This document shows, piece after piece, positions 4,827 to 18,406 of a DNA stretch of 64,000 nucleotides. The stretch covers positions 68,092 through 132,091 of IMG/VR virus record IMGVR_UViG_3300029305_002985; one strand, given 5' to 3'. The position numbers were made by a program, and so were the translations under genes. The stretch is from a virus. Numbering within the stretch: the stretch's first letter is position 1; the number at the start of each line of letters is the position of its first letter. Below the pieces are notes generated by a model that saw nothing but the letters and a program-made list of their open reading frames with translations, ran no database searches and had not been told where the DNA came from.

Positions 4827-4878
4827 TGTTTTTTCTCCTTTATGTTTTTATGTATCGGCGTGGATTGCTCCGCGCCGA

Positions 4879-5589: not shown

Positions 5590-5590
5590 T

Positions 5591-5776
5591 TTATAACTCT
5601 CCTAACTTGATAACAGAAATAATCACAAAGTCTGTTACCATATTCTCTTTGCTATTATAGTGGTCGGGCAAAGCGGCAAGCCACTCCGCAAGGTCGCGTT
5701 CGTGCCAGATAAAATTATTGCAATCGACCTCAAAGCGGTCAAGACTTGCGGAATAAAGTGTTGCAAGATAGGTCAT
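5591..5776 (-). CDS. hypothetical protein, 61 aa (start MTYLATLYS)
   Basis: The ORF-track upstream extension overlaps the promoter -10 (ATGTGGTATAAT), so the true start is the ATG at 5776, after RBS GAGAGGAGAACATAAAA. Confidence 0.5.
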   Translation of the reverse strand: MTYLATLYSASLDRFEVDCNNFIWHERDLAEWLAALPDHYNSKENMVTDFVIISVIKLGEL

Positions 5777-5802
5777 TTTTATGTTCTCCTCTCTCTTGGT
5801 AT

Positions 5803-5862
5803 TATTATTATACCACATTTGATTGAGTTTGTCAAGGGGTTTTATAAATTTTTTTGGAAGGT
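5803..5862 (-). promoter_or_regulatory. early promoter P1 type (TTGACA-17-TGgTATAAT) for the 5776-to-4879 operon
   Basis: -35 at 5830-5835 and -10 at 5807-5812 (reverse complement). Confidence 0.6.
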
Positions 5863-5896
5863 CTTATCTCCTAGAGCGTACCACGCACTTCCTCCC

Positions 5897-5965
5897 CTTG
5901 ACAATAATATTATATCACATTTGCAGGAAATAGTCAATAGTCAAAATCACCAAAGTTTCGCTCGC
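5897..5965 (-). promoter_or_regulatory. upstream P2-type promoter plus motif variant TCACCAAAGTTT
   Basis: Same cassette family as 2906-2990. CTTGACAATAATATTATATCAC. Confidence 0.4.
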
Positions 5966-5995
5966 AAAAATGGCGGCAACTGGTTAAATTGCACA

Positions 5996-6030
5996 AAACG
6001 GAGCGCGCCGACCCTGCGCGCTCCGCTCGG
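5996..6030 (-). terminator. rho-independent terminator downstream of the 6145 gene
   Basis: Minus strand GGAGCGCGCAGGGTCGGCGCGCTCC followed by GTTTTGTGCAA. Confidence 0.55.
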
Positions 6031-6144
6031 AACTTTAGGCAAAAATAAAAAAGCCTAGACACGAGAAATTCGGTCTAGAAATTGTGGAAGAGGTCTACTT
6101 CGCGGAAAACCGACGCTCGCACGATCGCTTGCGCCGTCCAGCGA

Positions 6145-6444
6145 TTACTGGAAGTGTTTAATCACATCTTGTGCATTGTATTCATTTTCGTCTTTCTCCA
6201 AGATAATAATTGTTCTTTCAATTTCGGCACAGTTGCCTAAATTTTGGATGGTTGAAATAACTTTCGAAATCTCTTCCGCACAATCATTTTTTGTCCCGTC
6301 AGAATGGAAGAGTAGCCGCGCGGACTCTTTGCAAAATAACGCGTGAACCGCGAAATCCGTGGCGGCAACTGCCTCCCACTCAAGAGGGACAAGAGAAGAC
6401 TCAAAAGGTGTTAGCACAAGAGCGTGGATTAAATGATACTCCAT
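6145..6444 (-). CDS. hypothetical early protein, 99 aa
   Basis: ORF with RBS AAAAGGAGG. Promoter TTGACA-17-TATAAT directly upstream at 6450-6508. Confidence 0.6.
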   Translation of the reverse strand: MEYHLIHALVLTPFESSLVPLEWEAVAATDFAVHALFCKESARLLFHSDGTKNDCAEEISKVISTIQNLGNCAEIERTIIILEKDENEYNAQDVIKHFQ

Positions 6445-6449
6445 CGCTT

Positions 6450-6508
6450 TGACCTCCTTTTATCTCTTTGTATTATTATTATAATATAAATTTTTCAAAA
6501 TGTCAAAT
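6450..6508 (-). promoter_or_regulatory. promoter TTGACA-17-TATAAT
   Basis: Reverse complement atTTGACAttttgaaaaatttatatTATAATaataatacaaagagataaaaggagg. Confidence 0.6.
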
Positions 6509-6509
6509 G

Positions 6510-6549
6510 CGGCAGACCTAGGTTTTTCTTCCTTGACCTAGGTCTGCCG
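6510..6549 (-). terminator. 14-bp perfect-stem hairpin (terminator for the 6683-6557 operon)
   Basis: gcggcagacctagg-N14-cctaggtctgccgc. On the minus strand it is followed by ATTTGACATTTTG. Confidence 0.55.
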
Positions 6550-6556
6550 CACTTTC

Positions 6557-6661
6557 AAAATTCATCGTAGTGTTCAGCCGCATCTTTCTCATCCTTTGGG
6601 ATAGCGCCCCAAAAGATGCCAAGCACCGCCGCAAAAATAAAGATTACCGCGATTTCCATAG
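6557..6661 (-). CDS. 34-aa hydrophobic membrane peptide
   Basis: MEIAVIFIFAAVLGIFWGAIPKDEKDAAEHYDEF with RBS GGAGAAAACT. Below the ORF-track size cutoff. Confidence 0.4.
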
Positions 6662-6682
6662 TTTTCTCCTTTTGAAGGGCGA

Positions 6683-7189
6683 TTACTCGCCCTTCTGCAA
6701 TTTAAGATATTCTTTTACCATTTCGGCAACATCTACCGAACTACCGCGCGTTTGTGCCATTCTGATTTTTTCTTCAAAGGGGTGCGCCTTGCGCCATTCA
6801 AGTGCAATTTGCTCTTGTTCAAGATTGTAAGCAATACATTGTTCGTATTCTTCTTCAAAGTTGAGTTCACGGAAGCGGTCTGTCAAGGTGTCATTTTTGG
6901 TTTCACAAGTGACAATGTTGATGCTTGCCCACACCATTATCACAAAGCAAGCGACCGCGCCAACCGCGAAGCGCCAATCCCAATAGGTGTCTGCCAAACA
7001 AGCGAAAGTGAGGGTTGCGATGAACAAAGGCAACCAAAGGTACAAGCAAAAGTGTTGAAGCCACTCGTTGCGGTTAATGGCTTTTTCAGTCTGCTGGTCA
7101 ACCTCTTTTGCAAAAGCCTTTTCCTCATTGTCAAAGCCATTGGTGTTGGGGTTAAAGGTCTTGTAGGTGAAGCAACGAGAGAGTGTCAT
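6683..7189 (-). CDS. membrane protein, 168 aa, 2 TM
   Basis: Segments LYLWLPLFIATLTFACL and AVGAVACFVIMVWASINIV. Confidence 0.6.
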   Translation of the reverse strand: MTLSRCFTYKTFNPNTNGFDNEEKAFAKEVDQQTEKAINRNEWLQHFCLYLWLPLFIATLTFACLADTYWDWRFAVGAVACFVIMVWASINIVTCETKNDTLTDRFRELNFEEEYEQCIAYNLEQEQIALEWRKAHPFEEKIRMAQTRGSSVDVAEMVKEYLKLQKGE

Positions 7190-7262
7190 TGTTCTGTTCT
7201 CCTTTTGATGTAGTGTTCAAGAAGGGCTCTGTATCTGTTGCTCCGTCACTGGCGGAATGTTT

Positions 7263-7360
7263 GTGTCATCCCCTCTTGACACTTATATTATATCATAAAT
7301 GCAGGATTTCGTCAATAGGCAAGTTGCACAAACTTTTGGCGCGGAAATTGTGCAAGGTGC
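7263..7360 (-). promoter_or_regulatory. P2-type promoter (TTGACG-17-TGaTATAAT) with upstream GTTGCACAAACTTTTGG motif and inverted partner ATTGTGCAAGG
   Basis: Reverse complement cctaTTGACGaaatcctgcatttatgaTATAATataagtgtcaag. Motif at 7324-7340. Confidence 0.5.
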
Positions 7361-7376
7361 TAGGCTACAGTAAAAT

Positions 7377-7430
7377 CGCGCCGTGGCAAACGGTCACGGC
7401 GCGGCGAGAGTTTCCTCTCAACCGCGCCGC
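7377..7430 (-). terminator. tandem hairpins downstream of the 7435 gene
   Basis: gcgccgtg-gcaaacggt-cacggcgc and gcggcg...cgccgc. On the minus strand they are followed by GATTTTACTG. Confidence 0.45.
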
Positions 7431-7434
7431 GCGC

Positions 7435-7746
7435 TTAATTCATTTTGAAGATGGGGTCAATGTCAATCGGCACAGGGCAGTTCTCTCCATAGCACTCAAT
7501 GGTGATGGAGTAGCGCTTCGTGCGCCAAAATTCGCGGTTCCACGGCTTGTAGTAGACAACCATAGAGATTTTGTGCTTGCTTCGGTTGTGGTCGATGGGA
7601 CAGACTTTTTCAGCAAAACTGCACACCTGCTCGTTTGCGCCCTTGCGCTTTTTGAGTATTTCGATGGCTTTAGCTCGTGCCGTGGTGAAATCGGTGAAGG
7701 CGCGCTTTTCGTGATGGTAGTTGACCATAAATACAGACATTTTCAT
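7435..7746 (-). CDS. hypothetical protein, 103 aa, third gene of the MazF-like operon
   Basis: ORF 17 nt downstream of the MazF-like gene, with RBS AAAAGGAGAACATAACA. Confidence 0.55.
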   Translation of the reverse strand: MKMSVFMVNYHHEKRAFTDFTTARAKAIEILKKRKGANEQVCSFAEKVCPIDHNRSKHKISMVVYYKPWNREFWRTKRYSITIECYGENCPVPIDIDPIFKMN

Positions 7747-7762
7747 TGTTATGTTCTCCTTT

Positions 7763-8110
7763 TCAAAATAGATTGAGTTGAATTTTGAGCGCTTTGCTTA
7801 CTCTTGCCATTTCCTCGGCGGTGGCTTCGCCCATATACTTGGACAGTCGGCACTTGTCAATGGTGCGGACTTGCTCACAGAGGATAGTGCCTTTGATGGC
7901 GCGTCCCTCAATGGGATAGAGGGTTGCGTGGGTGGGAATAGGTTTCTTGACTTGGGAGGTTATGGAGCAAACCGTGACCGTGGTGCTTCGCGCGTTGTTA
8001 ATGTCATTTGACACAATCAATACAGGGCGCAAACCGCCTTGCTCGCTACCCCTTGCAGGGGAGAGGTCAGCGTAGAAAATCTGACCTCTCTTGATAGGGT
8101 TATTCATCAT
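7763..8110 (-). CDS. PemK/MazF-family endoribonuclease toxin homolog, about 115 aa
   Basis: MMNNPIKRGQIFYADLSPARGSEQGGLRPVLIVSNDINNARSTTVTVCSITS...ATLYPIEGRAIKGTILCEQVRTIDKCRL matches the MazF/PemK/Kid fold motifs. Start taken as the ATG at 8110; the longer ORF-track extension is unlikely. Confidence 0.7.
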   Translation of the reverse strand: MMNNPIKRGQIFYADLSPARGSEQGGLRPVLIVSNDINNARSTTVTVCSITSQVKKPIPTHATLYPIEGRAIKGTILCEQVRTIDKCRLSKYMGEATAEEMARVSKALKIQLNLF

Positions 8111-8321
8111 AGTCAAACCCCTCAACCACCTTGCGCTCGGTATGCGCCTCACAGTGGTACATAACCTCACCCGTCCAACGATTGACCACATCGCACACAT
8201 CGGCGTGTCCGCAATCCACACGGATATAGCCGTATGCTTTTGCATCGTCAAGTTCCTCAAAGTCCGCCTTGTGCTTGCCATCAAGCAGTACCATAAGGTC
8301 GCAGGTTTCAATGTTCATCAT
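8100..8321 (-). CDS. Cys/His-rich 73-aa protein overlapping the MazF-like start by 11 nt; candidate non-canonical antitoxin
   Basis: Overlap geometry typical of antitoxin-toxin pairs. Motif DCGHADVCDV...YHCEAH. No MazE/AbrB-like fold is recognisable. Confidence 0.5.
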   Translation of the reverse strand: MMNIETCDLMVLLDGKHKADFEELDDAKAYGYIRVDCGHADVCDVVNRWTGEVMYHCEAHTERKVVEGFDYDE

Positions 8322-8364
8322 AATATGTTCTCCTTTTCTTGTCGGGGTCTTACCCCTTTGACAC

Positions 8365-8440
8365 TTATATTATACCACATTTGTGGCAGTTTGTCAAGGG
8401 GTTTTTCAAACTTTCTTTGAAAAATTTTTTATCAACAGTG
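8365..8440 (-). promoter_or_regulatory. early promoter P1 type (TTGACA-17-TGgTATAAT) with UP-like palindrome
   Basis: -35 at 8392-8397 and -10 at 8369-8374 (reverse complement). Confidence 0.6.
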
Positions 8441-8496
8441 AGTGGGGTTTGTTCCATTACCTTGCAAGTACCCCATATTCTTTTACTTCCTGTCCC

Positions 8497-8580
8497 CTTG
8501 ACACTTATATTATATCACATTTTCGGGATAAATGCAATAGGCAGAATAGACAAAGTTTCGCACAAGTTTTTGTGCAAAAT
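8497..8580 (-). promoter_or_regulatory. upstream P2-type promoter plus GACAAAGTTTCG motif and palindrome GCACAAGTTTTTGTGC
   Basis: CTTGACACTTATATTATATCAC. Palindrome at 8559-8576. Confidence 0.45.
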
Positions 8581-8594
8581 GCTAGCCCACCCAC

Positions 8595-8648
8595 AAAACG
8601 GCTCGGCGCGACCCACGCCGAGCCGCTGAACAAAGAAAGGTTGGGCTT
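8595..8648 (-). terminator. tandem rho-independent terminators downstream of the 8647 gene
   Basis: Minus strand GGTTGGGCATAAGCCCAACC followed by TTTCTTTGTT, then GGCTCGGCGTGGGTCGCGCCGAGCC followed by GTTTTGTG. Confidence 0.6.
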
Positions 8649-8925
8649 ATGCCCAACCCCTCTCTTTTTTAATTTGTTCGTAGCGCTCTGCCTTTTCGCG
8701 CTCGATTTTTTCTTTATCATACACGCGACACTTGATGCCCGTGTAGCCATACTTTTTGAGGTCTGCGCCGCTCCAATAGCGCTTTGCGCATATCTTCTTG
8801 ACGCCTTCCATTTGGTAGTGGCTCTTGTTCTCACAGTATGCCGCTATGCTCGGCACTTCAATGATTGCGCTGACCGCGCGATAGCCTTTGTCGCTTACGA
8901 GAGTGACCTGAATTTGTTTGCTCAT
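8647..8925 (-). CDS. hypothetical basic protein, 92 aa
   Basis: ORF in an ATGA-overlapped operon with the 8922-9116 gene. Confidence 0.55.
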   Translation of the reverse strand: MSKQIQVTLVSDKGYRAVSAIIEVPSIAAYCENKSHYQMEGVKKICAKRYWSGADLKKYGYTGIKCRVYDKEKIEREKAERYEQIKKERGWA

Positions 8926-9116
8926 TTGTTCTTACCTCTCTTTCTCTTTTTGTATGCCTTATAGATGGCACGACCGATGGGGATTGCAAGCATTGGGGAG
9001 AAGATTGCGCAGACCGCAATGGTGAGTTTTTCATCCCACGCATATTGGTCATCAATCAAAATGCAAATCCAAGTGTTAAGGAGTATCCAACCGAGAATAA
9101 TTGCAAGTGCTATCAT
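8922..9116 (-). CDS. small membrane protein, 64 aa, 2 TM
   Basis: Segments IALAIILGWILLNTWICILI and AVCAIFSPMLAIPIG, with a basic tail. Confidence 0.55.
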   Translation of the reverse strand: MIALAIILGWILLNTWICILIDDQYAWDEKLTIAVCAIFSPMLAIPIGRAIYKAYKKRKRGKNK

Positions 9117-9130
9117 CTTATGTACCTCTC

Positions 9131-9200
9131 TTTCTGTACTTTTATTATATCATATTTGCTTGCTCTTATCAATAGGCATTATGCACAAAGTTTTGGGGCG
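9131..9200 (-). promoter_or_regulatory. promoter TTGATA-17-TGaTATAAT plus TTATGCACAAAGTTTTGGGG motif
   Basis: Reverse complement cctaTTGATAagagcaagcaaatatgaTATAATaaaagtacag. Confidence 0.5.
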
Positions 9201-9207
9201 GGACTTG

Positions 9208-9516
9208 TCAACAATAGACAAGTCCCATATCGCGCCAGCGCAACACGCTGATTTGATTGCACGCGCGCCCGACTTCCAGCGCTTCGCGCTTCGTTGCTAC
9301 GCGGTGGCTTTTGTCGATATAGTAAACACCTTCGCTGAACCAAACACCGCAGTTGCCGCTATATGCCTTTACTGCATTGATGGCTTCGCGTGCGGTGCGG
9401 CACTCGATGCCCTCGGTGGCTACTTGGTAGCCTGTCTTATGGGTGATGCACTTGCCGCCTTTAAGCGTCAAGCCGTCATTGTCACGCAGTTTGAGAATGG
9501 TGCGAATGTTAATCAT
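9208..9516 (-). CDS. hypothetical protein, 102 aa (start MINIRTILKL)
   Basis: ATG at 9516 preceded by GGTTTACAGTT. The longer ORF-track version runs into the upstream promoter. Confidence 0.5.
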   Translation of the reverse strand: MINIRTILKLRDNDGLTLKGGKCITHKTGYQVATEGIECRTAREAINAVKAYSGNCGVWFSEGVYYIDKSHRVATKREALEVGRACNQISVLRWRDMGLVYC

Positions 9517-9559
9517 AACTGTAAACCTCTTGTATGTATTCAGTAGGGGTTGTACTTCC

Positions 9560-9626
9560 CCCTTCTGTACCTTAATTATACCACACTTTGCACCTTTTGT
9601 CAATAGACAAGTTGCACAAAGTTGAG
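9560..9626 (-). promoter_or_regulatory. promoter TTGACA-17-TGgTATAAT plus GTTGCACAAAGTT motif
   Basis: Reverse complement tctaTTGACAaaaggtgcaaagtgTGgTATAATtaagg. Confidence 0.55.
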
Positions 9627-9642
9627 GTTGGGGTTTTGGTTA

Positions 9643-9810
9643 TTATCCCCAAACCTCTGCTTCTGCTTGCGCGGCAGTGGTGTAAACAGTGGTGGCAAGC
9701 ACGCGCCCGTTGTTTGCTTGTGCGAACTCTTGTGCCGCGGCTTCAGTGGTGAACATAGCAAGAAGGTCAGCCTCAAACTCGGTGTTTTCCCATACTGCGT
9801 AGATAGTCAT
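9643..9810 (-). CDS. hypothetical 55-aa protein
   Basis: MTIYAVWENTEFEADLLAMFTTEAAAQEFAQANNGRVLATTVYTTAAQAEAEVWG with RBS GAGAGG. Below the ORF-track cutoff. Confidence 0.45.
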   Translation of the reverse strand: MTIYAVWENTEFEADLLAMFTTEAAAQEFAQANNGRVLATTVYTTAAQAEAEVWG

Positions 9811-9845
9811 TTTTTGTACCTCTCATTTATGTATTTGGAAGGTCT

Positions 9846-9900
9846 TTCCCCTTCCTTCTGTAATAATTATACTACTTTTTGCCTCATTTGTCAAGCCTTT
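9846..9900 (-). promoter_or_regulatory. promoter TTGACA-17-TATAAT
   Basis: Reverse complement ggcTTGACAaatgaggcaaaaagtagTATAATtattacagaaggaagg. Confidence 0.55.
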
Positions 9901-10018
9901 TTCAGGATTTTTTCTTCGTCATTTTGCACAAAATTTCGCGCGATTTTTATTTGATAGTTGTGCATTCTGCCCAACATAGGGCCCGCGCGGCCGCACACGA
10001 AAGCACAAGGCACTGTGC

Positions 10019-10336
10019 TTAATCAGCACAGTACCCTCTGCGATAGTTATTATTTATTGCGGTGAAGAGGAAGTGCGGCAGCCGCTCAATGCGAAAGTGT
10101 CTCTTCACTTGCCCCACAGTAGGACAGTACATAGTGATGATTTCCTCTTGTTGATTGCGGATAATCATCACACCAGTGGAAGTGAGATAGAGAGTGACAG
10201 CCTCGCGCCATTCTCTTCTATCCTCTTCTTTGATAGTCATCACTGTTCTACCAAAGCCAACCTCTGTGGCAATTCTTGCATACCTGTCAAGCCTGTCTTG
10301 CTCCATGTGTTTTGTAAGAGTTACTCTCATCATCAT
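10019..10336 (-). CDS. hypothetical protein, about 105 aa (start MMMRVTL)
   Basis: ATG at 10336 lies 5 nt after RBS GAGGTGA. It is co-transcribed with the 10347-10508 gene (10-nt gap). Confidence 0.5.
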   Translation of the reverse strand: MMMRVTLTKHMEQDRLDRYARIATEVGFGRTVMTIKEEDRREWREAVTLYLTSTGVMIIRNQQEEIITMYCPTVGQVKRHFRIERLPHFLFTAINNNYRRGYCAD

Positions 10337-10346
10337 GGCGCTCACC

Positions 10347-10508
10347 TCACGCGTTCAGCGCCTTAAGAATTTCTCTGCGCTCTGCTTCAAGTTCGCGGCG
10401 TCTGTTCCAGTTCTCGTTCCACTTGTTGTAAGCATCGCACATCTCGATTGCCCACAGTTCGTTCTCGATTGCTTCAAGTCTTGCTTCCATCTTTGCTCTG
10501 TCCATCAT
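10347..10508 (-). CDS. 53-aa coiled-coil-like protein
   Basis: MMDRAKMEARLEAIENELWAIEMCDAYNKWNENWNRRRELEAERREILKALNA with RBS AAAAGAGGTAAAG. Confidence 0.45.
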   Translation of the reverse strand: MMDRAKMEARLEAIENELWAIEMCDAYNKWNENWNRRRELEAERREILKALNA

Positions 10509-10555
10509 TGTTCTTTACCTCTTTTTATGTATTTGGAAGGGGTCTCTCTCCCTCT

Positions 10556-10645
10556 TTCCATAATTATTATACCACATTGGGTGGCTCTTGTCAAGTGGCA
10601 AGATGCACAAACTTTTCATTGTTTGTTCGTGCATCTTGCACAAGG
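10556..10645 (-). promoter_or_regulatory. promoter TTGACA-17-TGgTATAAT plus imperfect inverted pair of the GCACAAAC motif
   Basis: Reverse complement ccacTTGACAagagccacccaatgTGgTATAAT. ATGCACAAAC...GTTCGTGCAT at 10604-10640. Confidence 0.5.
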
Positions 10646-10661
10646 TTTATTAATCCTCGTA

Positions 10662-10787
10662 CTTGTAAAGGAATGCGCCGTGCTTGCGCGTTTCCACTTG
10701 CATCTCTTGCTTGCTCATACCCATACAACACACTTTGTGTCCATCCCCAAACACGAACCAGTACCACTTCTTTGCCATTTTAATTTA
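10662..10787 (-). CDS. 41-aa peptide
   Basis: MAKKWYWFVFGDGHKVCCMGMSKQEMQVETRKHGAFLYKYED with RBS GAGAGG. Confidence 0.35.
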
Positions 10788-10814
10788 CCTCTCTTGTATG
10801 TATTTTTGAGGTTG

Positions 10815-10870
10815 GGCTCTTGCCCTTCCTTCTGTAATTATTATACCATAAAAGCAGGTGTTTGTCAATA
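10815..10870 (-). promoter_or_regulatory. promoter TTGACA-17-TGgTATAAT
   Basis: Reverse complement cctaTTGACAaacacctgcttttatggTATAATaattacagaagg. Confidence 0.55.
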
Positions 10871-10899
10871 GGTTTTTTGAAATATTTTTATTGTTTACA

Positions 10900-10985
10900 A
10901 TTTGTTCACAATTTCAGGATTAACATAAAGTTTACAAATTATTAACAATTCGTTCACAAATTATTTACAAATTGTTTACAATTTA
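10900..10985. repeat. array of seven 11-bp-periodic direct repeats GTT(T/C/A)ACAA(A/T)TT; iteron- or operator-like
   Basis: TTTACAA/TTCACAA/TTAACAA units start at 10904, 10915, 10931, 10942, 10954, 10965 and 10976. Same core as the array at 430-478 but in opposite orientation. Confidence 0.6.
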
Positions 10986-11018
10986 AAAACCGCACCGCGC
11001 CGGGTGTTCGCGGTGCGG
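10985..11018 (-). terminator. rho-independent terminator, minus orientation
   Basis: Stem ccgcaccgcg/cgcggtgcgg with 9-nt loop, flanked by AAAAA at 10985-10989 (TTTTT on the minus strand). Confidence 0.6.
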
Positions 11019-11224
11019 CGATCGATTTAATGGGGCGTGTCTACACACCATTCGCGCGTATTTTTTTGGCCTGACTACACAGTAATCTCTCTCTATTAAC
11101 CGGGGGTGGTTTATGGGAAAAAATTTTTTCTCGTTGTGGAAAATGGCTTTTCCTCGTACACCCACCCTCCAAATCTTTTTTCAATTTAGGAAAACGAAAA
11201 CCCCCATCCTTCCCCTCATCTCGA

Positions 11225-11260
11225 TAAAAAAAAGCGAGACACGCTTGCGCGTATCTCGCC
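11225..11260 (-). terminator. rho-independent terminator for the lipase gene
   Basis: Minus strand GCGAGATACGCGCAAGCGTGTCTCGC followed by TTTTTTTTATCGAG. Confidence 0.65.
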
Positions 11261-11273
11261 TCGGTCGTTAAGG

Positions 11274-12026
11274 TTAATCATCTAACCCCATTTCAATTCT
11301 CAATACAACCCCATCTTCACTTTCATCAAAAGCCTTTAAACTTTTTACCATCTCGCTTTGATAATGCGGCCACACAGCCACAATCTCTCTCGCAGCTTTC
11401 GTATCTCTAAATCCACTCTTTATCCACTGCCATAATGCCGCAAATGGCTTCCACTTGCCGCCTATCTTAACCATCTCTCCAACATGGCAGAAACCAAATG
11501 CACGAGGCGGCATATGGGTCACGATATCCGCGCGGTTGCGGAAGACTCTAAAATTCTTCCATCTCTCTTGCAATTCATCCTTAACCCAAAATCCTGAATA
11601 AATGCGCGGCCCTTCAAAACTAATCCCCCAGCAGGTGCCGCGAATATCGGGGCGATGGAACCAGATACACTCATGCGCGAATGCGGCAAGGGCGCCGCCG
11701 TGACTATACCCAATCACCACGATCTTTTGCCACTTATACTCCAAATCAGTGAGGCTCTTGGTTTCCGTAATCTTCTTAATGATGATGTCCTCAACTTCTT
11801 TCCATGCGGCAAGGAAACCCCCGTGCACTCTATAGGGAATCTTCATGTCTTTATAAGGCTTGCGCCAATAGCTGAAGTTGCGGCGCCAATCAACATCTCC
11901 ATTGCTACCCTCAAAATAGATATAAAGCGCGCGGCCGTCCTCGACGAACGCATAGTTTACATGATTGCCACACTCTTGATATTTGACATCATAAGCGCAA
12001 TTTCTGAATAATTTTTCAAAGGTCAT
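11274..12026 (-). CDS. class-3 (fungal-type) lipase / alpha-beta hydrolase
   Basis: Nucleophile-elbow motif VVIGYSHGGALAAF (GxSxG) within a lipase_3-like arrangement. RBS AAAGGAGA. Standard code, no in-frame TAG. 250 aa. Confidence 0.65.
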   Translation of the reverse strand: MTFEKLFRNCAYDVKYQECGNHVNYAFVEDGRALYIYFEGSNGDVDWRRNFSYWRKPYKDMKIPYRVHGGFLAAWKEVEDIIIKKITETKSLTDLEYKWQKIVVIGYSHGGALAAFAHECIWFHRPDIRGTCWGISFEGPRIYSGFWVKDELQERWKNFRVFRNRADIVTHMPPRAFGFCHVGEMVKIGGKWKPFAALWQWIKSGFRDTKAAREIVAVWPHYQSEMVKSLKAFDESEDGVVLRIEMGLDD

Positions 12027-12121
12027 AATAAAATTCTCCTTTCATTATATTTTCCCTTTAAATATATAAAAATGGCGGCAATCCAATTAATTAAATTTGC
12101 CCTCAATGCGGCTGCCGCGTC

Positions 12122-12150
12122 TTGACTTCCGCAAAATTTTTTATTACACT
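12122..12150 (+). promoter_or_regulatory. candidate plus-strand promoter TTGACT-17-TACACT at the head of the late block
   Basis: cTTGACTtccgcaaaattttttatTACACT. Weak -10. Confidence 0.3.
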
Positions 12151-12184
12151 TTCTATATAGAAGAACTAGTGAAAGGAGCCTTAA

Positions 12185-13354
12185 ATGGACGAATATTTAG
12201 ATGATCTCTTGCCCGATGATGTAGACGAAGTGGCTCCTGAAACGGAACAAGAGATACTTGAAGAAAAAATGGCGGCGATCGATGCTCCATTAAAGTTAGA
12301 CTATAAACTAACTGACATTAATGATCGCGTCGCTCTTGTAGATAAAATAATTGCGGCGACCCCTAAGGAGAAATTAACCAACAGATACCTGGAGTATCTT
12401 GGCGACTATATTATGTAGGCAATCACCAAAGAAGAGCGCAAACAGCATCTATTCATGACAGACAATCGCCGCGTTACAATTGACAAGCGTGAGACCTCGC
12501 TTGAAGGTCTAATCGAGAAATTTGAGAACGGCGCCGATGGCATCTATAATATGATGACCAATGATAAAAATATTATCATGACGCCAAAAGTAGAGATTAC
12601 TGAACAGGATATTGCGGAGGTACCAGGTCTACGCGAATTGCGCGAAGCCATTAATGTCGTAGAGCAATAGTATAAGGCGGCAACCGGCAAACGCAAATAT
12701 GCATTAAAGAAACAGCTAATAGAAATGAGGCGCGACCAGTATGTGCTTAAAGGAATGTTTAAGCAGACAACAAAGGCGGCGCCTTGTTCGCGTGGAATCA
12801 ACAAAGTTGACCTTTGGGAAGAGCGTTGGATTGATGCAGCGGGCGAGCCATAGAGTAAAGGTCTAGTTACATTTTTTAATCCTGACCATGTGGCGGCGAT
12901 CCTGCGAAATTACAACGGTTTAAAATTAGAAACTGCGGGCCAATATTGGAATGACTTTTTTTATTTGATATAGGACTTTGATGGATTAATTCACAGAGCA
13001 TTAAAATATCAATAGCCGCTTCTTTGGGATTTAATGCAAATGAAGTTCCAAGGTAAGCAAAACATAGAAATTGCGGCCGCCCTTAAAGAGAAACATGGCA
13101 AGTCTTATACGCCAGAATATATCTCTTAGTTATGGGGGAAGAAAATTCCGAAGCTTATTTCTGAGCAAGAGAAGAATGATTATTTAATTCAATATTACTC
13201 CACGATTGCGCCGGAGAAAGCAAAGTGGAAGAAATGTTCAAAATGTGGACAAATTAAATTAGCTCATAATAGATTTTTTTCAAAGAATAATACCTCCAAA
13301 GATGGGTGGTACAGCCAGTGCAAATGCTGTAGAAATTCTAAAGGAAGGAGCTGA
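12185..13354 (+). CDS. hypothetical protein, about 389 aa, acidic N-terminus and C-terminal Cys-rich zinc-ribbon; first gene containing sense TAG codons
   Basis: ORF-track fragments 12185-12418 and 12455-12670 are in the same frame, as is everything up to the TGA at 13352-13354. In-frame TAGs at 12416, 12668, 12851, 12971, 13010 and 13127. C-terminus CSKCGQIKLAHNRFF...DGWYSQCKCC. Confidence 0.55.
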
Positions 13355-13359
13355 TTATT

Positions 13360-14589
13360 ATGGCTCAAACATATTGTGAAAAATGTAAACATACTATGGA
13401 TGAAGCTAACTTCTATACATATAAAGATGGTAGTAAAACCGAGCTATGTAAGAAGTGCCTTACAATGCACATAGATATGTTTAATCCTGAAACCTTTATG
13501 TGGGTTTTGGAAAAAATGGACGTGCCCTATGTCCCCGCGGAATGGGACTCGTTGCGCGATAAAGATATTGAAAAGAAAGGTATTAAGGCGACTGCTAGCG
13601 CGGTGTTCGGTAAATACCTGTCTAAAATGAAACTTAAACAATGGAAAGAATACGGATGGGCGGACACCGAGAGACTTCAAGCGGAGAGTGCGGAAAAGGC
13701 GGCGATCCGTGCAGAAGAGTAGGCAGCTAAAGACGCCTATTACTAGGAACAGCTGGATGCAGGCGCTATTAGTGAAGCGCAATACAAGACGCTAGTGAGC
13801 GGCAAGACGCAGCTCGACCGCGCTTATAATCAAGTTGCCACTGGACAGTATTTAGGAAATGATAATCCTTATAATGAAAACTTTTTTATGAACGAGTCAG
13901 AGCTCGCGGATCCGGGAGCTGAGCTGACGCAAGAAGATAAGGTTTACCTTGCTATGAAGTGGGGTCGCCTTTATAAGCCCGGTGAGTGGGTTGAACTTGA
14001 GCGCATGTATACGGAAATGACAAATTCGTTTGATATTCAAGATGCTGACTCTGAGGCAACACTGATTTTACTTTGCAAAACTAACTTAAAACAAAATCAA
14101 GCTATCGACTCTGGCGATATTGAAGGCTTCCAGAAATTATCTAAAGTCTCTGAATCTTTGCGTAAGACCGCTAAATTTACTGCGGCCCAGAACAAAGAAG
14201 CAAAAGGAGACTTCGTTGACTCTGTAGGTGAGCTTATCCGCCTTTGCGAAACAGAGGGCTTCATTCCTCGTTTCTGCACAGATATTCCACAGGATAAAGT
14301 AGATCTTACTCTCGCTGACCAAAAGGAATATATCCGTAAGCTTGTAACGCAAGACCTGGGCTTTGGCCAACAGATCGAAGATGCTATTAAGAAGATTCAG
14401 ATCCAAAAGGAAATGAATGAGGCGGCAGACCGTGCGCGCGAAGAAGCGGGCGATAACTATATTGATCCTATTGATGAAATAGATGATGAGGATATGGCAG
14501 CATTCTTTGAAGAGAAGGCTGCGCAAAGCGATCAAGATGAGTCGCTGTTTAAGGACGGTGATAAATCCTTATGGCCTTAGCAGACTTAA
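13360..14589 (+). CDS. putative DNA-packaging / small-terminase-like protein with N-terminal zinc ribbon, about 409 aa
   Basis: CEKCKH...CKKC at the N-terminus. The TAA at 14587-14589 overlaps the terminase ATG (TAATG). In-frame TAGs at 13720, 13747 and 14578. Functional assignment rests on position only. Confidence 0.4.
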
Positions 14590-16385: not shown

Positions 16386-16742
16386 ATGAGAGCTTCTAGA
16401 GGCGAGATAAAAGTCGCAGAGATACTCACTGAAGCCGGTTTGTCTTTTACCGAAGAATATTCTTTCCCGGACTTGTTAGGTCATACCGGACGCCCGCTCC
16501 GCTTTGATTTTGCTGTGTTCGATGATGATGGTGAACTTGATTTCTTAATTGAATACCAAGGTATCCAGCATTACGAGCCCAAGTCAAAATTCGGCGGCAT
16601 AGCAGGTTTACGCCAACAGCAGTATTATGATATGCAAAAACGCGAATATTGTAAGAAACATGGAATCATCCTTGTTGCAATACCTTACTTTGACGATCCG
16701 CGCCTAAACTATGACTACATAATGCATGCGGCCGGCTATTAA
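16386..16742 (+). CDS. DUF559/Vsr-like PD-(D/E)xK endonuclease; free-standing homing-endonuclease-like gene
   Basis: RPLRFDFAVFDDDGELDFLIEYQGIQHY...K resembles the E-x-D/Q-G-x-H core of Vsr/DUF559 nucleases. No TAG codon. RBS GAAGGAGG. Inserted between terL and portal. Confidence 0.55.
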   Translation: MRASRGEIKVAEILTEAGLSFTEEYSFPDLLGHTGRPLRFDFAVFDDDGELDFLIEYQGIQHYEPKSKFGGIAGLRQQQYYDMQKREYCKKHGIILVAIPYFDDPRLNYDYIMHAAGY

Positions 16743-16852
16743 GTTTAGTATGAGTTGACTTGACCGAAAATTTTTCGTATAATAAGAGAGAAAGAAAAGA
16801 GGTGCATATCTTGATCAATCGAAGAGAAGAGATTAAAGCAAAGGGTTTTAAA

Positions 16853-18391
16853 ATGACTCTTTCTAATAGCACCACAGATGCTGCTGAGCGTTCTATGACC
16901 GATTTTTCAAAAATTAAAGTCGGTTTGAAAACTTTAGAGGACGCGGTTATTGAGTTAGGTGATTATCGCAAAGCTAATCCGCGTCTCTCTGATAAAGCTG
17001 CTATTCTTCAAGCCATTAATAATAACGATATTGTGACAATGAGAGAGGTTTCCGCCTTTTTCTATCGCATCAGTGGTATTTATTCAAGACTTGTTAAGCA
17101 CTTGAGTAATTTCTATCGTTACGATTGGTTGCTTACCCCTTTTGTTCCTGAGTCAACTAAAATGACTCCAGAACGAATTATTGAGCAAACTAATCGTGGT
17201 CTTAATGCCCTTGATGAATTTCAAGTAAAAAGATATTTCGGCCGAGTGGCGCGAGAGGTCTTAATTAAGGGTTGCTACTATGGATATCGTATCCAGAATG
17301 GCGATTCTTATCAAGTTCAAGAGCTTCCGCAAAACTATTGCCGCAGTAGATTTAGCGTTAAAGGTAAGCCAGCAGTTGAGTTCCACATGAAGTTTTTTGA
17401 TGATCATTTTAAAGATGGTGAGCAAAAAATTAATGTGTTGAACTTATTCCCTAAAGAGTTTAGACAAGGCTACATTAAATATAAAAATGGAGAGTTGCCG
17501 CCTGCTTTTAAGGGAGATACTTCTGGCTGGTATTTATTAGATATTAATAGCACCGTAAAGTTTAATATTGGCGGCGTTGACTATCCATTATTTATGTCAG
17601 TTATTCCTCATATTATTGACTTGGATGCGGCACAAGATTTGGATAGAAAAAAGATGCAGCAAAAATTGTTAAAGATTATTATTCAAAAAATGCCACTCGA
17701 TAAGAATGGCGATTTAGTATTTGATGTTGACGAAGCGCAGGAATTGCATAATAATGCGGTTAAGATGCTAGGTAAGGCCATCGGTATTGATGTGCTTACT
17801 ACTTTTGCAGAAGTAGATGTTGCGGACTTAGCTGATAAGTCAAGCGTAACTTCTATTGATGAACTTGAGAAAGTAGAGCGCACAGTTTATAACGAATCAG
17901 GTACTGCTCAAAACTTATTCAACACAGATGGTAATATCGCTCTTGAAAAATCTATTCTTGACGATGAGGCAAGTTTGTATGATTTGATTTTACAATTCCA
18001 AGACTTTTTAAACGAGCTATTGGAACCCTTTAACAAGAACCCTAAGAAATTTTATCTTAGAGCACAAATTCTACCAACTACTATTTATAATTATAAAGAT
18101 ATGTCTAAATTATATAAAGAACATACTCAGCTTGGATATTCTAAGATGCTGCCGCAGGTGGCGCTTGGACAATCTCAAAGCACGATCTTGGCAACCGCTA
18201 AGTTTGAAAATGAGATTCTTGATTTGGTCAATGTCTTTATTCCCCCTATGTCTTCGAATACAATGAACTCTGATTCGTTGAAAAATCGCGGCAAGGGGTC
18301 AGATGGTGAAGAGAAGAAGGCAGGTCGTAAGGAAAAAGCTGACGACGAAAAATCAGAAAAGACCATCAAAAACAAAGAAAGTATGAACTAA
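16853..18391 (+). CDS. portal protein (by position, size and acidic C-terminus), about 512 aa
   Basis: Continuous ORF, no TAG, directly after terL. Start chosen at ATG 16853 (MTLSNS); the ORF-track version begins at an upstream TTG. Confidence 0.6.
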   Translation: MTLSNSTTDAAERSMTDFSKIKVGLKTLEDAVIELGDYRKANPRLSDKAAILQAINNNDIVTMREVSAFFYRISGIYSRLVKHLSNFYRYDWLLTPFVPESTKMTPERIIEQTNRGLNALDEFQVKRYFGRVAREVLIKGCYYGYRIQNGDSYQVQELPQNYCRSRFSVKGKPAVEFHMKFFDDHFKDGEQKINVLNLFPKEFRQGYIKYKNGELPPAFKGDTSGWYLLDINSTVKFNIGGVDYPLFMSVIPHIIDLDAAQDLDRKKMQQKLLKIIIQKMPLDKNGDLVFDVDEAQELHNNAVKMLGKAIGIDVLTTFAEVDVADLADKSSVTSIDELEKVERTVYNESGTAQNLFNTDGNIALEKSILDDEASLYDLILQFQDFLNELLEPFNKNPKKFYLRAQILPTTIYNYKDMSKLYKEHTQLGYSKMLPQVALGQSQSTILATAKFENEILDLVNVFIPPMSSNTMNSDSLKNRGKGSDGEEKKAGRKEKADDEKSEKTIKNKESMN

Positions 18392-18406
18392 GGAGAGGAG
18401 AAACCG

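What the first reader, a model, noticed from the sequence alone, without database searches (positions are those of the whole stretch)
10985..12185. Abrupt compositional and coding-strand switch coincides exactly with the code boundary, with a terminator-bracketed lipase gene in between
Left of about 11.0 kb is GC-richer sequence with all genes on the minus strand and standard code. Right of about 12.2 kb is AT-rich sequence with all genes on the plus strand and TAG recoded. The junction carries a minus-strand class-3 lipase (11274-12026) with its own terminator. About 200 bp of non-coding sequence (11030-11225) lies between two minus-strand terminators. A divergent region at 12030-12185 has a candidate late promoter. 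This could be the early/late divergence point of one phage, with the lipase as a moron, virulence or host-membrane factor. Alternatively, it could be an assembly chimera of two unrelated elements. Both halves use TTGACA-17-TATAAT promoters and GGAGG RBSs, which favours a single host and hence a single phage.
Basis: partly seen in the sequence, partly recalled or inferred. Interest (0 to 1): 0.5.

Follow-up and report, generated by a model that had tools for sequence, protein, structure and literature searches.

The report
Early/late junction of amber-recoded phage
This is the genuine control junction between the early and late gene arms of one uncultivated gut phage that reads the TAG stop codon as an amino acid in its late genes, with an accessory lipase gene slotted in; the pattern is already known for such phages, so the finding is real but not new in kind.

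Summary
The junction is real and is not an assembly chimera. Window 10000-13500 recurs 100% identical and unbroken in contigs from six samples and three pipelines. The same gene order holds in seven diverged lineages. It is the divergent early/late control region of an SPbeta-like siphophage related to Phass-1 and Enterococcus phage EF1.

Several details need correcting:
- The left arm is TAG-free, not shown to be "standard code". It has 0 in-frame TAG and 0 TAG stops in 24 genes.
- The right arm has 153 in-frame TAG in 23 of 37 genes and also no TAG stops.
- The code boundary does not sit exactly on the strand switch. In sister lineages the minus-strand lipase carries TAG at late-arm density (7.8 vs 9.2 vs 0.4 per 1000 codons). 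The boundary is therefore at about 11.0-11.27 kb.
- The GC step at the junction is modest. The skew switch is sharp.
- The two arms use different promoter subclasses.

The lipase is an intact class-3 serine hydrolase (S108/D167/H181). It occupies a variable cargo slot and is absent from relatives that share the junction, so it behaves as a moron. The 200-bp "non-coding" stretch is a conserved element with fixed spacing and no conserved RNA fold. It is most likely a DNA site, possibly pac. No suppressor tRNA was found.

The parts
10650..10778 (-). First early gene (42 aa) of the leftward arm. It is TAG-free with a TAA stop and a GAGAGGTAAA ribosome-binding site.
   Evidence: It is conserved as the first gene after the junction in L008, L010 and L011.
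10840..10868 (-). First early promoter, TTGACAAACACCTGCTTTTATGGTATAAT. It matches the sigma-A consensus 12 of 12 and has an extended -10. It is one of 12 such promoters, all on the minus strand between 944 and 10868.
   Evidence: 13 matches in the window against 0.08 expected. It keeps its position in L008 and L012, and in L017, L047, L048 and L052.
10883..10985 (.). Array of seven 11-bp repeats (GTTYACAAWTT, i.e. TTGTRAAC on the minus strand) directly upstream of the first early promoter. It looks like an operator or iteron array.
   Evidence: D1, I1-I5; 6 of the 7 window matches lie here. It is almost invariant in L008 and L012. Lineage-specific replacements sit at the same place in L016, L018, L047 and L048. 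A related TGTGAACAA motif occurs in L052 and L057.
10985..11018 (-). Second intrinsic terminator: CCGCACCGCG-N9-CGCGGTGCGG followed by T5.
   Evidence: (I23). In L012 the stem is kept while the loop changes. It is absent from L016, L017, L018, L047 and L048.
11030..11225 (.). Conserved non-coding junction element. The core runs from about 11200 to 11071 on the minus strand: TCGT..GAAAT..AAAAAAGA-TTTGGAGRG-N..-TGTMCGTGAG ... (55 nt from TTTGG) TCCCRNAA..CACCCCC..GATAGTTGTGTAGTC.
   Evidence: It is present in 11 lineages, including lipase-less L052, L053 and L056. The anchor spacing is constant at 54-56 nt. There is no conserved ORF, and frame-breaking indels occur in L012. It has no Rfam match. 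RNAalifold finds 0 conserved pairs.
11231..11262 (-). Intrinsic terminator of the lipase gene: 14-bp stem, GCAA loop, T8.
   Evidence: Every lineage has a hairpin plus T-run here, each with a different stem sequence.
11274..12026 (-). Class-3 lipase/esterase, 250 aa, predicted cytoplasmic. The catalytic triad is S108 (GYSHG), D167 (ADIVTHMPP) and H181 (FCHVG). It has 0 TAG in this phage.
12027..12184 (.). Divergent control region. The plus strand carries the promoter of the rightward operon. The minus strand carries a conserved non-consensus motif upstream of the lipase, (A)GTTAATTGATyNCCGCnnTTTTTATATATT, at 12052-12100.
12122..12150 (+). Sigma-A-like promoter of the rightward arm, TTGACT-17-TACACT, with an AAAATTTT spacer.
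   Evidence: The same position reads TTGACA-17-TATAAT in L016 and L017, TTGACA-17-CATAAT in L018, and TTGACC-17-TATAAT in L052.
12185..13354 (+). First gene of the rightward arm, 389 aa. It belongs to phrog_5767, which is annotated 'sigma factor' (an HTH-type label, not verified here). It has 6 in-frame TAG, the first at 12416-12418, so the standard code would stop it after 77 aa.

Best explanation
Window 10.8-12.2 kb is the natural divergent control junction of one uncultivated large siphophage. Its longest contig is 104.5 kb, and related IMG/VR contigs are 130-135 kb. It belongs to the SPbeta-like lineage that also contains Phass-1 and Enterococcus phage EF1.

Leftward arm. This is a host-takeover-type early arm of small genes. 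At least 12 consensus, extended -10 sigma-A promoters drive it. Its genes contain TAG neither in frame nor as a stop. They can therefore be translated correctly in an unmodified host and also after suppression begins.

Rightward arm. This is the morphogenesis arm: sigma-like protein, YonG-like protein, TerL, portal, YonD-like, YonB-like capsid protein, tape measure and fibres. It starts from a weaker sigma-A-like promoter. In 23 of its 37 genes TAG is a sense codon, most likely Gln. Full-length late proteins therefore need amber suppression. This is inferred and follows the published model for recoded phages: translation-level gating of late and lytic functions.

Lipase. It is an accessory gene, a moron with its own ribosome-binding site and terminator. 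It sits in a variable cargo slot between the late promoter and a conserved junction element. It is catalytically intact. Across the clade it carries TAG at the density of late genes, so functionally it belongs to the suppression-dependent regime. The real code boundary is thus the terminator/element region at about 11.0-11.27 kb, not the strand switch at 12.1 kb. Its most likely role is to attack host membrane or envelope lipids late in infection, around lysis. This is inferred with low confidence.

Non-coding stretch. The 200-bp stretch is a conserved cis element defined by sequence and spacing. It is most likely a protein-binding DNA site. By analogy with SPbeta, whose genome opening point lies in the equivalent divergent gap, it may be the packaging (pac) site. 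The adjacent 11-bp repeat array is an operator-like site controlling the first early promoter.
For: SHOWN
- The junction is identical in six independent assemblies.
- The same gene order holds in seven diverged lipase-bearing lineages and in lipase-less relatives.
- Pfam YonB, YonD_N and YonG_N hits occur in SPbeta gene order (compared).
- The capsid protein is 45% identical to that of Phass-1, 36% to EF1/VRE9 and 26% to SPbeta-like phages.
- TAG counts are 0 in 2347 codons on the left and 153 in 16531 on the right. None of the 61 genes ends in TAG.
- Replication genes beyond the window (NrdD, Pol III alpha) are also TAG-free.
- Across eight lineages the lipase has 16 TAG in 2042 codons (7.8 per 1000). 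Late genes have 9.2 per 1000 and early genes 0.42 per 1000.
- TAG aligns with Gln in the conserved WPHYQSEM motif, and elsewhere with E, K and R.
- Two promoter classes exist, and the promoter at 12122 keeps its position across lineages.
- The lipase triad aligns with that of Thermomyces lipase 1dt3. S108 and D167 are invariant and H181 is at least 90% conserved across the homologues.
- The AlphaFold model has pLDDT 89.6 and its top matches are fungal class-3 lipases.
- The element is conserved with fixed 55-nt spacing and has no consensus RNA structure.

FROM THE LITERATURE
- Early genes compatible with the standard code, and recoded structural and lysis genes, are the established pattern. 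Lysis genes are preferentially recoded (bioRxiv 10.1101/2021.08.26.457843).
- The Phass-1 group uses TAG for Gln and carries 2-3 tRNA-Sup-CTA genes (PMC10607447).
- The SPbeta genome opening point lies between the divergent genes yonR and yonP (bioRxiv 10.1101/2021.11.22.469490).
Against: - No suppressor tRNA, and no tRNA at all, was found in the window or in about 19 kb of flanks of the same phage. The means of TAG decoding is unproven here. tRNA(CUA) genes were seen only in more distant relatives: L089, L093 and L137.
- The window's own lipase has no TAG. Its 'late' status rests on orthologues.
- No convincing promoter for the lipase was identified. The conserved upstream motif does not recur elsewhere in the window.
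- The 'sigma factor' label of the first late gene comes only from a PHROG annotation. Pfam finds no sigma domain.
- The right arm also has sigma-A-like promoters, so temporal control by transcription is not established.
- The pac assignment is an analogy only. Contig ends near the element are not at one position.
- The timing of expression was not measured.
Confidence: 0.78

Rival explanations
1. Assembly chimera: two unrelated elements were joined by the assembler at about 11-12 kb.
For: The arms differ in GC (46.7% versus 38.2%), in tetranucleotide signature (r = 0.39-0.56 between arms, 0.73-0.89 within the right arm) and in TAG usage. In one sample the assembly breaks between about 11184 and 11229.
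Against: The 3.5-kb span across the junction is 100% identical in six contigs from six samples and three assembly pipelines. The exact lipase is on at least 23 contigs. The arrangement is conserved in seven diverged lineages and in cultivated relatives.
Confidence: 0.01
2. The lipase is an early or host-takeover gene that belongs with the leftward arm. On this reading the code boundary does coincide with the strand switch in this phage.
For: It is on the same strand as the early genes. Its GC (45.9%) is close to that of the left arm. It has 0 TAG in the window and in L008, L012 and L048. It lies immediately next to a sigma-A-transcribed region.
Against: It is insulated from the early arm by one or two terminators and the junction element. 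It lacks the TTGACAAA...TGNTATAAT early promoter found upstream of left-arm gene groups. Four orthologues carry 1-9 in-frame TAG, up to 36 per 1000 codons in L018, while early genes of the same contigs have almost none.
Confidence: 0.12
3. The conserved 11030-11225 element encodes a small non-coding RNA that ends at the second terminator. It might act as a replication primer or regulator, like the non-coding early transcript in the origin of lactococcal phage c2 (recalled from memory).
For: In the window, L008 and L012 it is bounded by terminators. The minus strand folds with z = -3.9, against -1.7 for the plus strand. Each lineage can form some local hairpin in the variable middle part.
Against: No sigma-A promoter precedes it. 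Five lineages lack the 3' terminator. Minimum-free-energy folds differ between lineages. RNAalifold finds no conserved pair in the 11-lineage, gap-free alignment. It has no Rfam match. Much of the z-score comes from the terminator hairpin.
Confidence: 0.15
4. The junction is an evolutionary recombination seam. A mobile early or host-takeover module from a different source was joined to a conserved late/replication backbone. That would explain the compositional contrast without any artefact.
For: The tetranucleotide signature of the left arm is distinct. A protein from the far end of the early arm has no relative in IMG/VR, whereas NrdD has 51. Early gene content differs between lineages. The operator repeats are lineage-specific.
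Against: The junction element, the early-promoter type and the position of the first early promoter are conserved across lineages. The contrast can also arise from different selection on short, highly expressed, TAG-free early genes. This rival is compatible with the best explanation rather than exclusive of it.
Confidence: 0.2

Closest known systems
Stop-codon-recoded (code 15, TAG to Gln) gut phages with early genes compatible with the standard code and recoded structural/lysis genes (Borges et al., bioRxiv 10.1101/2021.08.26.457843; crAss-like phages, PMC7886860)
   Same: In-frame TAG is confined to the structural/late module. Early and replication genes are free of it. TAG is not used as a stop. 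Low GC goes with recoding. Close relatives differ in whether they are recoded: L050, L053 and L056 are not, while L052, L054 and L057 are.
   Different: This is a different lineage, SPbeta-like and probably with a Firmicutes host rather than crAss, Lak or the named clades. No suppressor tRNA was located. The boundary can be placed to within about 250 bp at a defined control region, and it is offset by one gene from the strand switch.
Phass-1 / proposed Phassvirus group and relatives, including Enterococcus phage EF1 (Babkin et al. 2023, PMC10607447)
   Same: These are siphophages of about 130-140 kb from gut samples. Some members recode TAG. The capsid protein is 45% identical to that of Phass-1 and 36% to EF1/VRE9. 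The sigma-like, phrog_3314 and TerL gene order is shared with VRE9.
   Different: This is a different genus-level lineage. There is no DNA similarity to Phass-1 across the junction, and the GenBank map of Phass-1 shows no equivalent strand switch near its capsid genes. Neither a lipase nor the junction is described in that paper ('lipase' occurs 0 times).
Bacillus phage SPbeta: the yonR | yonP divergent gap at the head of the yonP-yonA late operon, which contains the genome opening point (Kohm et al., bioRxiv 10.1101/2021.11.22.469490)
   Same: The late operon has the order YonG, YonF (terminase), YonE (portal), YonD, YonC, YonB, YonA. It diverges from an oppositely oriented arm across a long non-coding gap. 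There are Pfam YonB/YonD_N/YonG_N hits here.
   Different: SPbeta uses the standard code. It has the YonO RNA polymerase and other genes between the gap and yonG. It has no lipase. No sequence similarity between the two gaps was tested or shown. pac was not demonstrated here.
Phage morons: accessory genes with their own expression signals inserted between conserved genes (concept recalled from memory, Hendrix and colleagues)
   Same: The lipase has its own ribosome-binding site and terminator. It sits in an intergenic slot. It is absent from relatives with an otherwise identical junction, and other cargo occupies the same slot in L053, L057 and L017.
   Different: No autonomous promoter was demonstrated. 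The gene is stably kept across at least eight lineages rather than being sporadic.
Mycobacteriophage Lysin B and other phage lipolytic enzymes (functional analogy, from memory)
   Same: It is a cytoplasmic serine esterase/lipase without a signal peptide, encoded by a phage and plausibly acting on envelope lipids late in infection.
   Different: It is a different family. LysB is cutinase-like, and the Foldseek match to a Gordonia LysB is insignificant (E = 0.028, TM = 0.24). It is not in a lysis cassette. The substrate is unknown.

Membership tests
Pfam PF01764 Lipase_3 (class 3 / fungal-type lipase) | Profile match above the curated gathering score | tested here: met
   47.4 bits against a cutoff of 22, E = 2.4e-12, covering profile positions 2-138 of 140.
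Pfam PF01764 Lipase_3 (class 3 / fungal-type lipase) | Ser-Asp-His triad with a GxSxG nucleophile elbow | tested here: met
   GYSHG (S108), ADIVTHMPP (D167) and FCHVG (H181) align with GHSLG, NDIVPRLPP and GYSHSS of Thermomyces lipase 1dt3. All three residues are identical in at least 97% of 121 homologues. In a 49-sequence subset S108 and D167 are invariant and H181 is at least 90% conserved.
Pfam PF01764 Lipase_3 (class 3 / fungal-type lipase) | Alpha/beta-hydrolase fold of the fungal lipase type | tested here: met
   The AlphaFold2 model has pLDDT 89.6 and pTM 0.87. Foldseek top hits are Rhizomucor miehei lipase (E = 6e-10), feruloyl esterase A and mono/diacylglycerol lipases.
Pfam PF01764 Lipase_3 (class 3 / fungal-type lipase) | Lipolytic activity and natural substrate | not testable with these tools
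   This needs an enzyme assay.
Code-15 (TAG to Gln) recoded phage | In-frame TAG in conserved, otherwise intact genes | tested here: met
   153 in-frame TAG in 23 of 37 right-arm genes. Reading TAG as sense turns fragments into ORFs of 2487, 1791, 921 and 901 aa.
Code-15 (TAG to Gln) recoded phage | TAG not used as a terminator | tested here: met
   0 of 61 genes end in TAG (49 TAA, 12 TGA).
Code-15 (TAG to Gln) recoded phage | TAG positions align with Gln in homologues | tested here: inconclusive
   In the lipase alignment TAG aligns with Gln in WPHYQSEM and YKWQK. Elsewhere it aligns with E, K, R and N. The sample is small. Gln is the published assignment for the related Phass-1.
Code-15 (TAG to Gln) recoded phage | Phage-encoded suppressor tRNA(CUA) | tested here: not met
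   There is no tRNA in the 64-kb window or in about 19 kb of flanks of the same phage, and no Rfam tRNA hit. About 20-50 kb of the genome could not be read. tRNA(CUA) is present in distant relatives L089, L093 and L137.
SPbeta-like siphophage lineage | SPbeta-type morphogenesis genes in SPbeta order | tested here: met
   Pfam YonG_N, YonD_N and YonB hits on the genes at 13360, 18407 and 20355, with TerL and portal between them. The order is the same as yonG-yonA in NC_001884.
SPbeta-like siphophage lineage | pac / genome opening point in the divergent gap upstream of the late operon | not testable with these tools
   This needs virion read termini. Only the analogy with Kohm et al. is available.
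Moron (accessory cargo gene) | Present or absent between otherwise conserved flanks | tested here: met
   The junction has no lipase in L052, L054 and L056. Other genes fill the slot in L053 and L057. L017 has an extra 103-aa gene there.
Moron (accessory cargo gene) | Own terminator and own promoter | tested here: inconclusive
   The terminator is clear, and every lineage has a hairpin plus T-run after the lipase gene, each with a different stem sequence. The promoter was not identified. There is only a conserved non-consensus upstream motif.
Structured non-coding RNA (for 11030-11225) | Conserved secondary structure with covariation, or membership of a known family | tested here: not met
   RNAalifold finds 0 pairs in the 11-lineage alignment. 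Minimum-free-energy folds are inconsistent. There is no Rfam match even at E <= 5.

The most novel reading that the evidence does not exclude
The conserved junction element, defined by sequence and spacing, is the packaging/opening (or origin) site of a large and so far undescribed branch of SPbeta-like gut phages. The class-3 lipase beside it is a new kind of lysis-stage, membrane-attacking phage effector. In sister lineages its production is held back by amber codons, which would make it an example of code-gated expression of a toxic enzyme outside a lysis cassette. In addition, this phage may decode TAG without a tRNA(CUA) of its own.
Probability: 0.15. Interest if true: 0.6.

Novelty: new member of a known kind. 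Interest (0 to 1): 0.33.

Why it matters
- It gives a base-level example of where a phage's "two codes" meet. The boundary follows regulatory class, not strand or composition. The early arm is TAG-free rather than "standard".
- This is practically important for annotating recoded phages. Single-code gene callers split the late arm into fragments, as the JGI and ENA gene calls for this phage show.
- It offers two testable leads. One is a widespread phage class-3 lipase family (more than 430 homologues, none in cultured phage genomes) whose TAG load suggests late, possibly lysis-linked action. The other is a conserved junction element that may be the pac site of this lineage.
- None of this overturns current understanding.

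Tried and rejected
- Motif scans. An 18-mer of the element searched in IMG/VR gave two chance hits in unrelated contexts. A degenerate 21-mer searched in JGI metagenome contigs gave 19 chance hits and none was the element.
- Lipase searches. The lipase has no relative in IMG/VR by pattern search, none in 50,697 phage genomes by tblastn, none in PADLOC, and only a sub-threshold NCBIfam hit.
- Hunt for the suppressor tRNA. ARAGORN was run on the window, on flanks of the same phage, on junction loci of relatives, on GTDB loci and on 58 IMG/VR loci. tRNA(CUA) appeared only in distant relatives.
- Walking further along the contig failed. The cluster representative of the far early protein sits on 1-kb contigs. 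That protein has no IMG/VR relative. The IMG/VR contigs reached through NrdD are only about 76% identical in a few DNA segments, so they are not the same phage.
- The small-ORF reading of 10983-11165 (60 aa, GTG start) was rejected. There is no start codon in L012 or L016, L012 has an early stop, and frame-breaking indels are present.
- The RNA-structure reading of the element was not supported.
- A search for a recurring 'late promoter' based on the lipase upstream motif found nothing. GATYNCCGCNNTTTT hits elsewhere are coding sequence or terminators. GTTAAW-N17-WATAWW is not enriched.
- A first look-up of the lipase was off by one codon and gave a false 'not on record'. This was corrected.

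Full report
WHAT IS IN THE SEQUENCE

Reading stop to stop under the four possible codes shows that only "TAG = sense" repairs the right-hand 52 kb. Fragments fuse into plus-strand ORFs of 2487, 1791, 931, 902 and 800 codons. With start codons chosen by ribosome-binding site, the 37 right-arm genes (12185-63408, all on the plus strand) hold 153 in-frame TAG in 23 genes. All of them end in TAA or TGA.

The left 10.8 kb contains about 24 small minus-strand genes. They have good AGGAG/GAGGT ribosome-binding sites, no in-frame TAG and no TAG stop (18 TAA, 6 TGA). At the right-arm TAG rate, 21.7 in-frame TAG would be expected there (P = 4e-10). So the strand switch and the contrast in TAG usage are real. 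The left arm, however, is TAG-free rather than demonstrably "standard code".

GC content is 46.7% on the left and 38.2% on the right overall. The step at the junction itself is small: 0.42, 0.47, then 0.40-0.43. The right arm is a mosaic in which low GC goes with high TAG density (rho = -0.47). The portal-capsid block at 16.4-22.1 kb is GC-richer and TAG-free. What flips sharply at 11-13 kb is the GC and AT skew, as expected at a point of divergent transcription. The tetranucleotide signatures of the arms do differ: r = 0.39-0.56 between arms and 0.73-0.89 within the right arm.

ANATOMY OF THE JUNCTION, READ ON THE MINUS STRAND FROM 12184 DOWN TO 10650

1. A 158-bp divergent control region.
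2. The lipase gene, 12026-11274. It matches Pfam Lipase_3 (E = 2.4e-12) and PHROG "esterase/lipase".
3. A strong intrinsic terminator at 11262-11231.
4. About 200 bp without a credible ORF.
5. A second perfect 10-bp hairpin plus T5 at 11018-10985.
6. Seven phased 11-bp repeats, GTTYACAAWTT, at 10985-10883.
7. A 12-of-12 sigma-A promoter with an extended -10 at 10868-10840.
8. The first early gene, 42 aa.

On the plus strand, TTGACT-17-TACACT at 12122-12150 precedes the first rightward gene, 12185-13354. No tRNA and no Rfam family is present anywhere in the window.

NOT A CHIMERA

The exact lipase protein is on at least 23 contigs from JGI, ENA and Logan. Window 10000-13500 is 100% identical, without a gap, in six contigs from six different samples and three assembly pipelines.

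Seven further lineages have lipases 58-75% identical to the window's. All show the same order: a late operon on one strand, the lipase and then small early genes on the other.

WHAT PHAGE THIS IS

The rightward genes carry the Pfam families YonG_N, YonD_N and YonB, with TerL and the portal between them. This is the yonG-yonA order of Bacillus phage SPbeta.

The capsid protein is 45% identical to that of Phass-1, a 136-kb phage with TAG read as Gln. It is 36% identical to Enterococcus phages EF1/VRE9 and 26% to SPbeta-like staphylococcal phages. The first rightward protein (phrog_5767, annotated "sigma factor", though Pfam finds no sigma domain) occupies the same position ahead of the phrog_3314/TerL genes in VRE9_2.

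Babkin et al. described the Phass-1 group, its reading of TAG as Gln and its two or three tRNA-Sup-CTA genes. They placed EF1 in the same broad group (PMC10607447). Eight contigs binned into GTDB MAGs (portal 56-64% identical) keep the sigma-like/YonG/TerL/portal block, with minus-strand genes diverging upstream. L052, L054 and L057 are TAG-recoded, while L050, L053 and L056 are not. The divergent junction is therefore ancestral to the lineage, and recoding is an overlay on the late arm.

THE CODE BOUNDARY IS ONE GENE TO THE LEFT OF THE STRAND SWITCH

The window's lipase has no TAG. Its orthologues in L016, L017, L018 and L047 have 4, 2, 9 and 1 in-frame TAG.

Summed over eight lineages:
- the lipase has 7.8 TAG per 1000 codons;
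- late genes have 9.2 per 1000;
- early genes have 0.42 per 1000.

TAG aligns with Gln in the conserved WPHYQSEM motif, and elsewhere with E, K and R. In the clade the lipase therefore belongs to the suppression-dependent class. The functional boundary lies in the terminator/element region at about 11.0-11.27 kb.

This fits the published model. Genes compatible with the standard code are expressed first. Structural and especially lysis-related genes are recoded, so they cannot be made prematurely (Borges et al.). NrdD and Pol III alpha beyond the right end of the window are also TAG-free.

PROMOTERS

Perfect TTGACA-17-TATAAT occurs 13 times, against 0.08 expected. Twelve of these are minus-strand sites between 944 and 10868, mostly of the form TTGACAAA...TGTGGTATAAT. 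This is a dense array of strong early promoters.

The right arm has near-consensus sites upstream of genes, several with an AAAATTTT spacer:

| Position | Sequence form |
|---|---|
| 12122 | TTGACT-17-TACACT |
| 16755 | TTGACT-17-TATAAT |
| 28166 | TTGACT-17-TATAAT |
| 36394 | TTGACT-17-TATAAT |
| 50007 | TTGACA-17-TACAAT |

The 12122 site keeps its position across lineages. It is a full consensus in L016 and L017 and near-consensus in L052, TTGACC-17-TATAAT. Both arms thus look readable by the host sigma-A polymerase. This makes translational gating by TAG a plausible timing device, but it remains an inference.

THE LIPASE

The residues S108 (GYSHG), D167 (ADIVTHMPP) and H181 (FCHVG) align with the catalytic triad of Thermomyces lipase 1dt3. 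All three are conserved in at least 97% of 121 homologues. In a 49-sequence subset, S108 and D167 are invariant and H181 is at least 90% conserved.

The AlphaFold model (pLDDT 89.6) matches fungal class-3 lipases, feruloyl esterase A and PLA1. Its best viral match is an annotated "Lipase" from a metagenomic siphovirus (34% identity). It has no signal peptide or transmembrane segment.

The family has more than 430 members in metagenomes. It has no member in 50,697 deposited phage genomes and none in PADLOC. More distant members sit in co-directional operons of other large phage-like contigs.

Relatives with the same junction lack the lipase (L052, L054, L056) or carry other genes at that position (L053, L057, and the extra gene in L017). 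This is the signature of a cargo slot and of a moron.

Its role is unknown. The late-type coding, and a TAG load in L018 (36 per 1000) well above that contig's late average, make a membrane or envelope-lipid function around lysis the best guess. Confidence in this is low.

THE "NON-CODING 200 BP"

This stretch is better conserved than the lipase gene. An HMM built from eight lineages also finds it in lipase-less L052 and L056, directly beside the late promoter, and in L053 and L057.

Two anchors, TTTGGAGRG and TCCCRNAA, are 54-56 nt apart in all 11 lineages, although the sequence between them differs. L056 has a 44-bp tandem duplication of the 5' block.

There is no conserved ORF and no preceding sigma-A promoter. 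Five lineages lack the 3' terminator. Single-sequence folds disagree, and RNAalifold finds no conserved pair. The favourable z-score of the window sequence (-3.9) is largely due to the terminator hairpin.

Conservation of sequence plus spacing, without conserved structure, points to a protein-binding DNA site. In SPbeta the genome opening point, where packaging starts, lies in the equivalent divergent gap between yonR and yonP. A pac site is therefore the best-supported analogy. An origin of replication or a regulatory site remains possible. The cumulative GC-skew minimum at about 12 kb does not discriminate, because it coincides with the strand switch.

The 11-bp repeat array next to the element is nearly invariant in L008 and L012. 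In other lineages it is replaced by different palindromic repeats at the same place. This is typical of operators that co-evolve with their binding protein.

WHAT REMAINS OPEN

- The means of TAG decoding is unknown. No tRNA was found in about 84 kb of this phage, and tRNA(CUA) was seen only in distant relatives.
- The lipase promoter is unidentified.
- Whether the first late protein is a true sigma factor is untested.
- The host is unknown.
- The timing of expression is entirely inferred.

VERDICT

This is a genuine and well-defined early/late junction of a TAG-recoded SPbeta-like phage. It is a new member of a known kind. Interest is modest. It carries two testable side leads: the code-gated lipase and the conserved junction element.

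Noticed in passing
window 944-10868 (minus strand): There are twelve perfect TTGACA-17-TATAAT promoters, mostly TTGACAAA...TGTGGTATAAT with an extended -10, in 10 kb of small genes (0.08 expected). This resembles a host-takeover module with many strong early promoters, as I recall for the SPO1 terminal redundancy.
   Followed up: partly
window 16386-16742 (+); L050, L053, L056, L057 TerL regions: A TAG-free HNH/homing-endonuclease gene lies between TerL and the portal gene (phrog_559/9084). In several relatives the TerL match is split by insertions of about 1 kb, which suggests mobile introns or inteins in the terminase gene.
   Followed up: no
window 7763-8110 (-) and 3317-3790 (-): The early arm encodes a PemK-like toxin-domain protein and an AbrB/MazE-type DNA-binding protein (MKATGIVRRIDDLGRVVIPKEIRR...). 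They are not adjacent. The AbrB-like protein is a candidate binder of the 11-bp repeats.
   Followed up: no
window 28882-36345 and 36454-41829 (+): Two giant late ORFs of 2487 aa (42 TAG) and 1791 aa (34 TAG) are visible only when TAG is read as sense. They are presumably the tape measure and a tail fibre or host-recognition protein. Standard-code gene calls in public assemblies break them into fragments.
   Followed up: no
window 16386-22114 (+): The HNH-portal-scaffold-capsid block has no TAG at all and mostly higher GC (0.43-0.47; the portal gene is 0.37), inside an otherwise recoded arm. Across right-arm genes TAG density falls as GC rises (rho = -0.47, p = 0.003).
   Followed up: partly
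window 11015-11026, 12069-12083, 12266-12283, 36374-36388: A GC-rich motif, (ATC)GATCGCCGCC(A)TTTT, recurs in three kinds of place: in the second terminator region, upstream of the lipase (and at the same place in L017), inside the first late gene, and just upstream of the promoter at 36394. There are 9 matches against 0.84 expected, but several fall in coding sequence or terminators. Its meaning is unclear.
   Followed up: partly
L089:1912-1998, L093:21039-21128, L137:4789-4864 and 5073-5147: tRNA genes with a CUA anticodon (amber suppressors, which ARAGORN labels 'Pyl') lie in tRNA clusters near the NrdD/replication genes of more distant relatives in IMG/VR. L137 has two copies.
   Followed up: partly
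L056:4029-4293 (minus strand): The 5' block of the junction element is tandemly duplicated, as a unit of about 44 bp: GTTTCGTCTTTTGAAATCAAAAAAATATTTGGTGAGAAAAT. This is iteron-like behaviour.
   Followed up: no
window about 11184-11229; contigs L003 and L021 (sample ERZ27248436): In one sample the MEGAHIT assembly breaks inside the junction, and the two contigs overlap by about 45 nt. Nearby, the window has a 25-nt G-rich insertion (GATGAGGGGAAGGATGGGGG...) relative to L008. This could reflect strain-level indel variation or a physical DNA end.
   Followed up: no
L043 (Enterococcus phage VRE9_2) record 131250-132560: In this cultivated relative, the stretch between the minus-strand genes and the operon that contains the sigma-like gene (which itself starts about 3.5 kb from the strand switch) holds only tiny ORFs of 30-40 aa called by PHANOTATE. 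It is probably a long non-coding control region comparable to the junction studied here.
   Followed up: no
L022:12741-20798 (beyond the right end of the window): The late arm ends about 0.9 kb past the window. It meets a converging minus-strand module of dUTPase, NrdD/NrdG, guanylate kinase and DNA polymerase III alpha. NrdD, guanylate kinase and the Pol III alpha fragment were translated and are TAG-free.
   Followed up: partly
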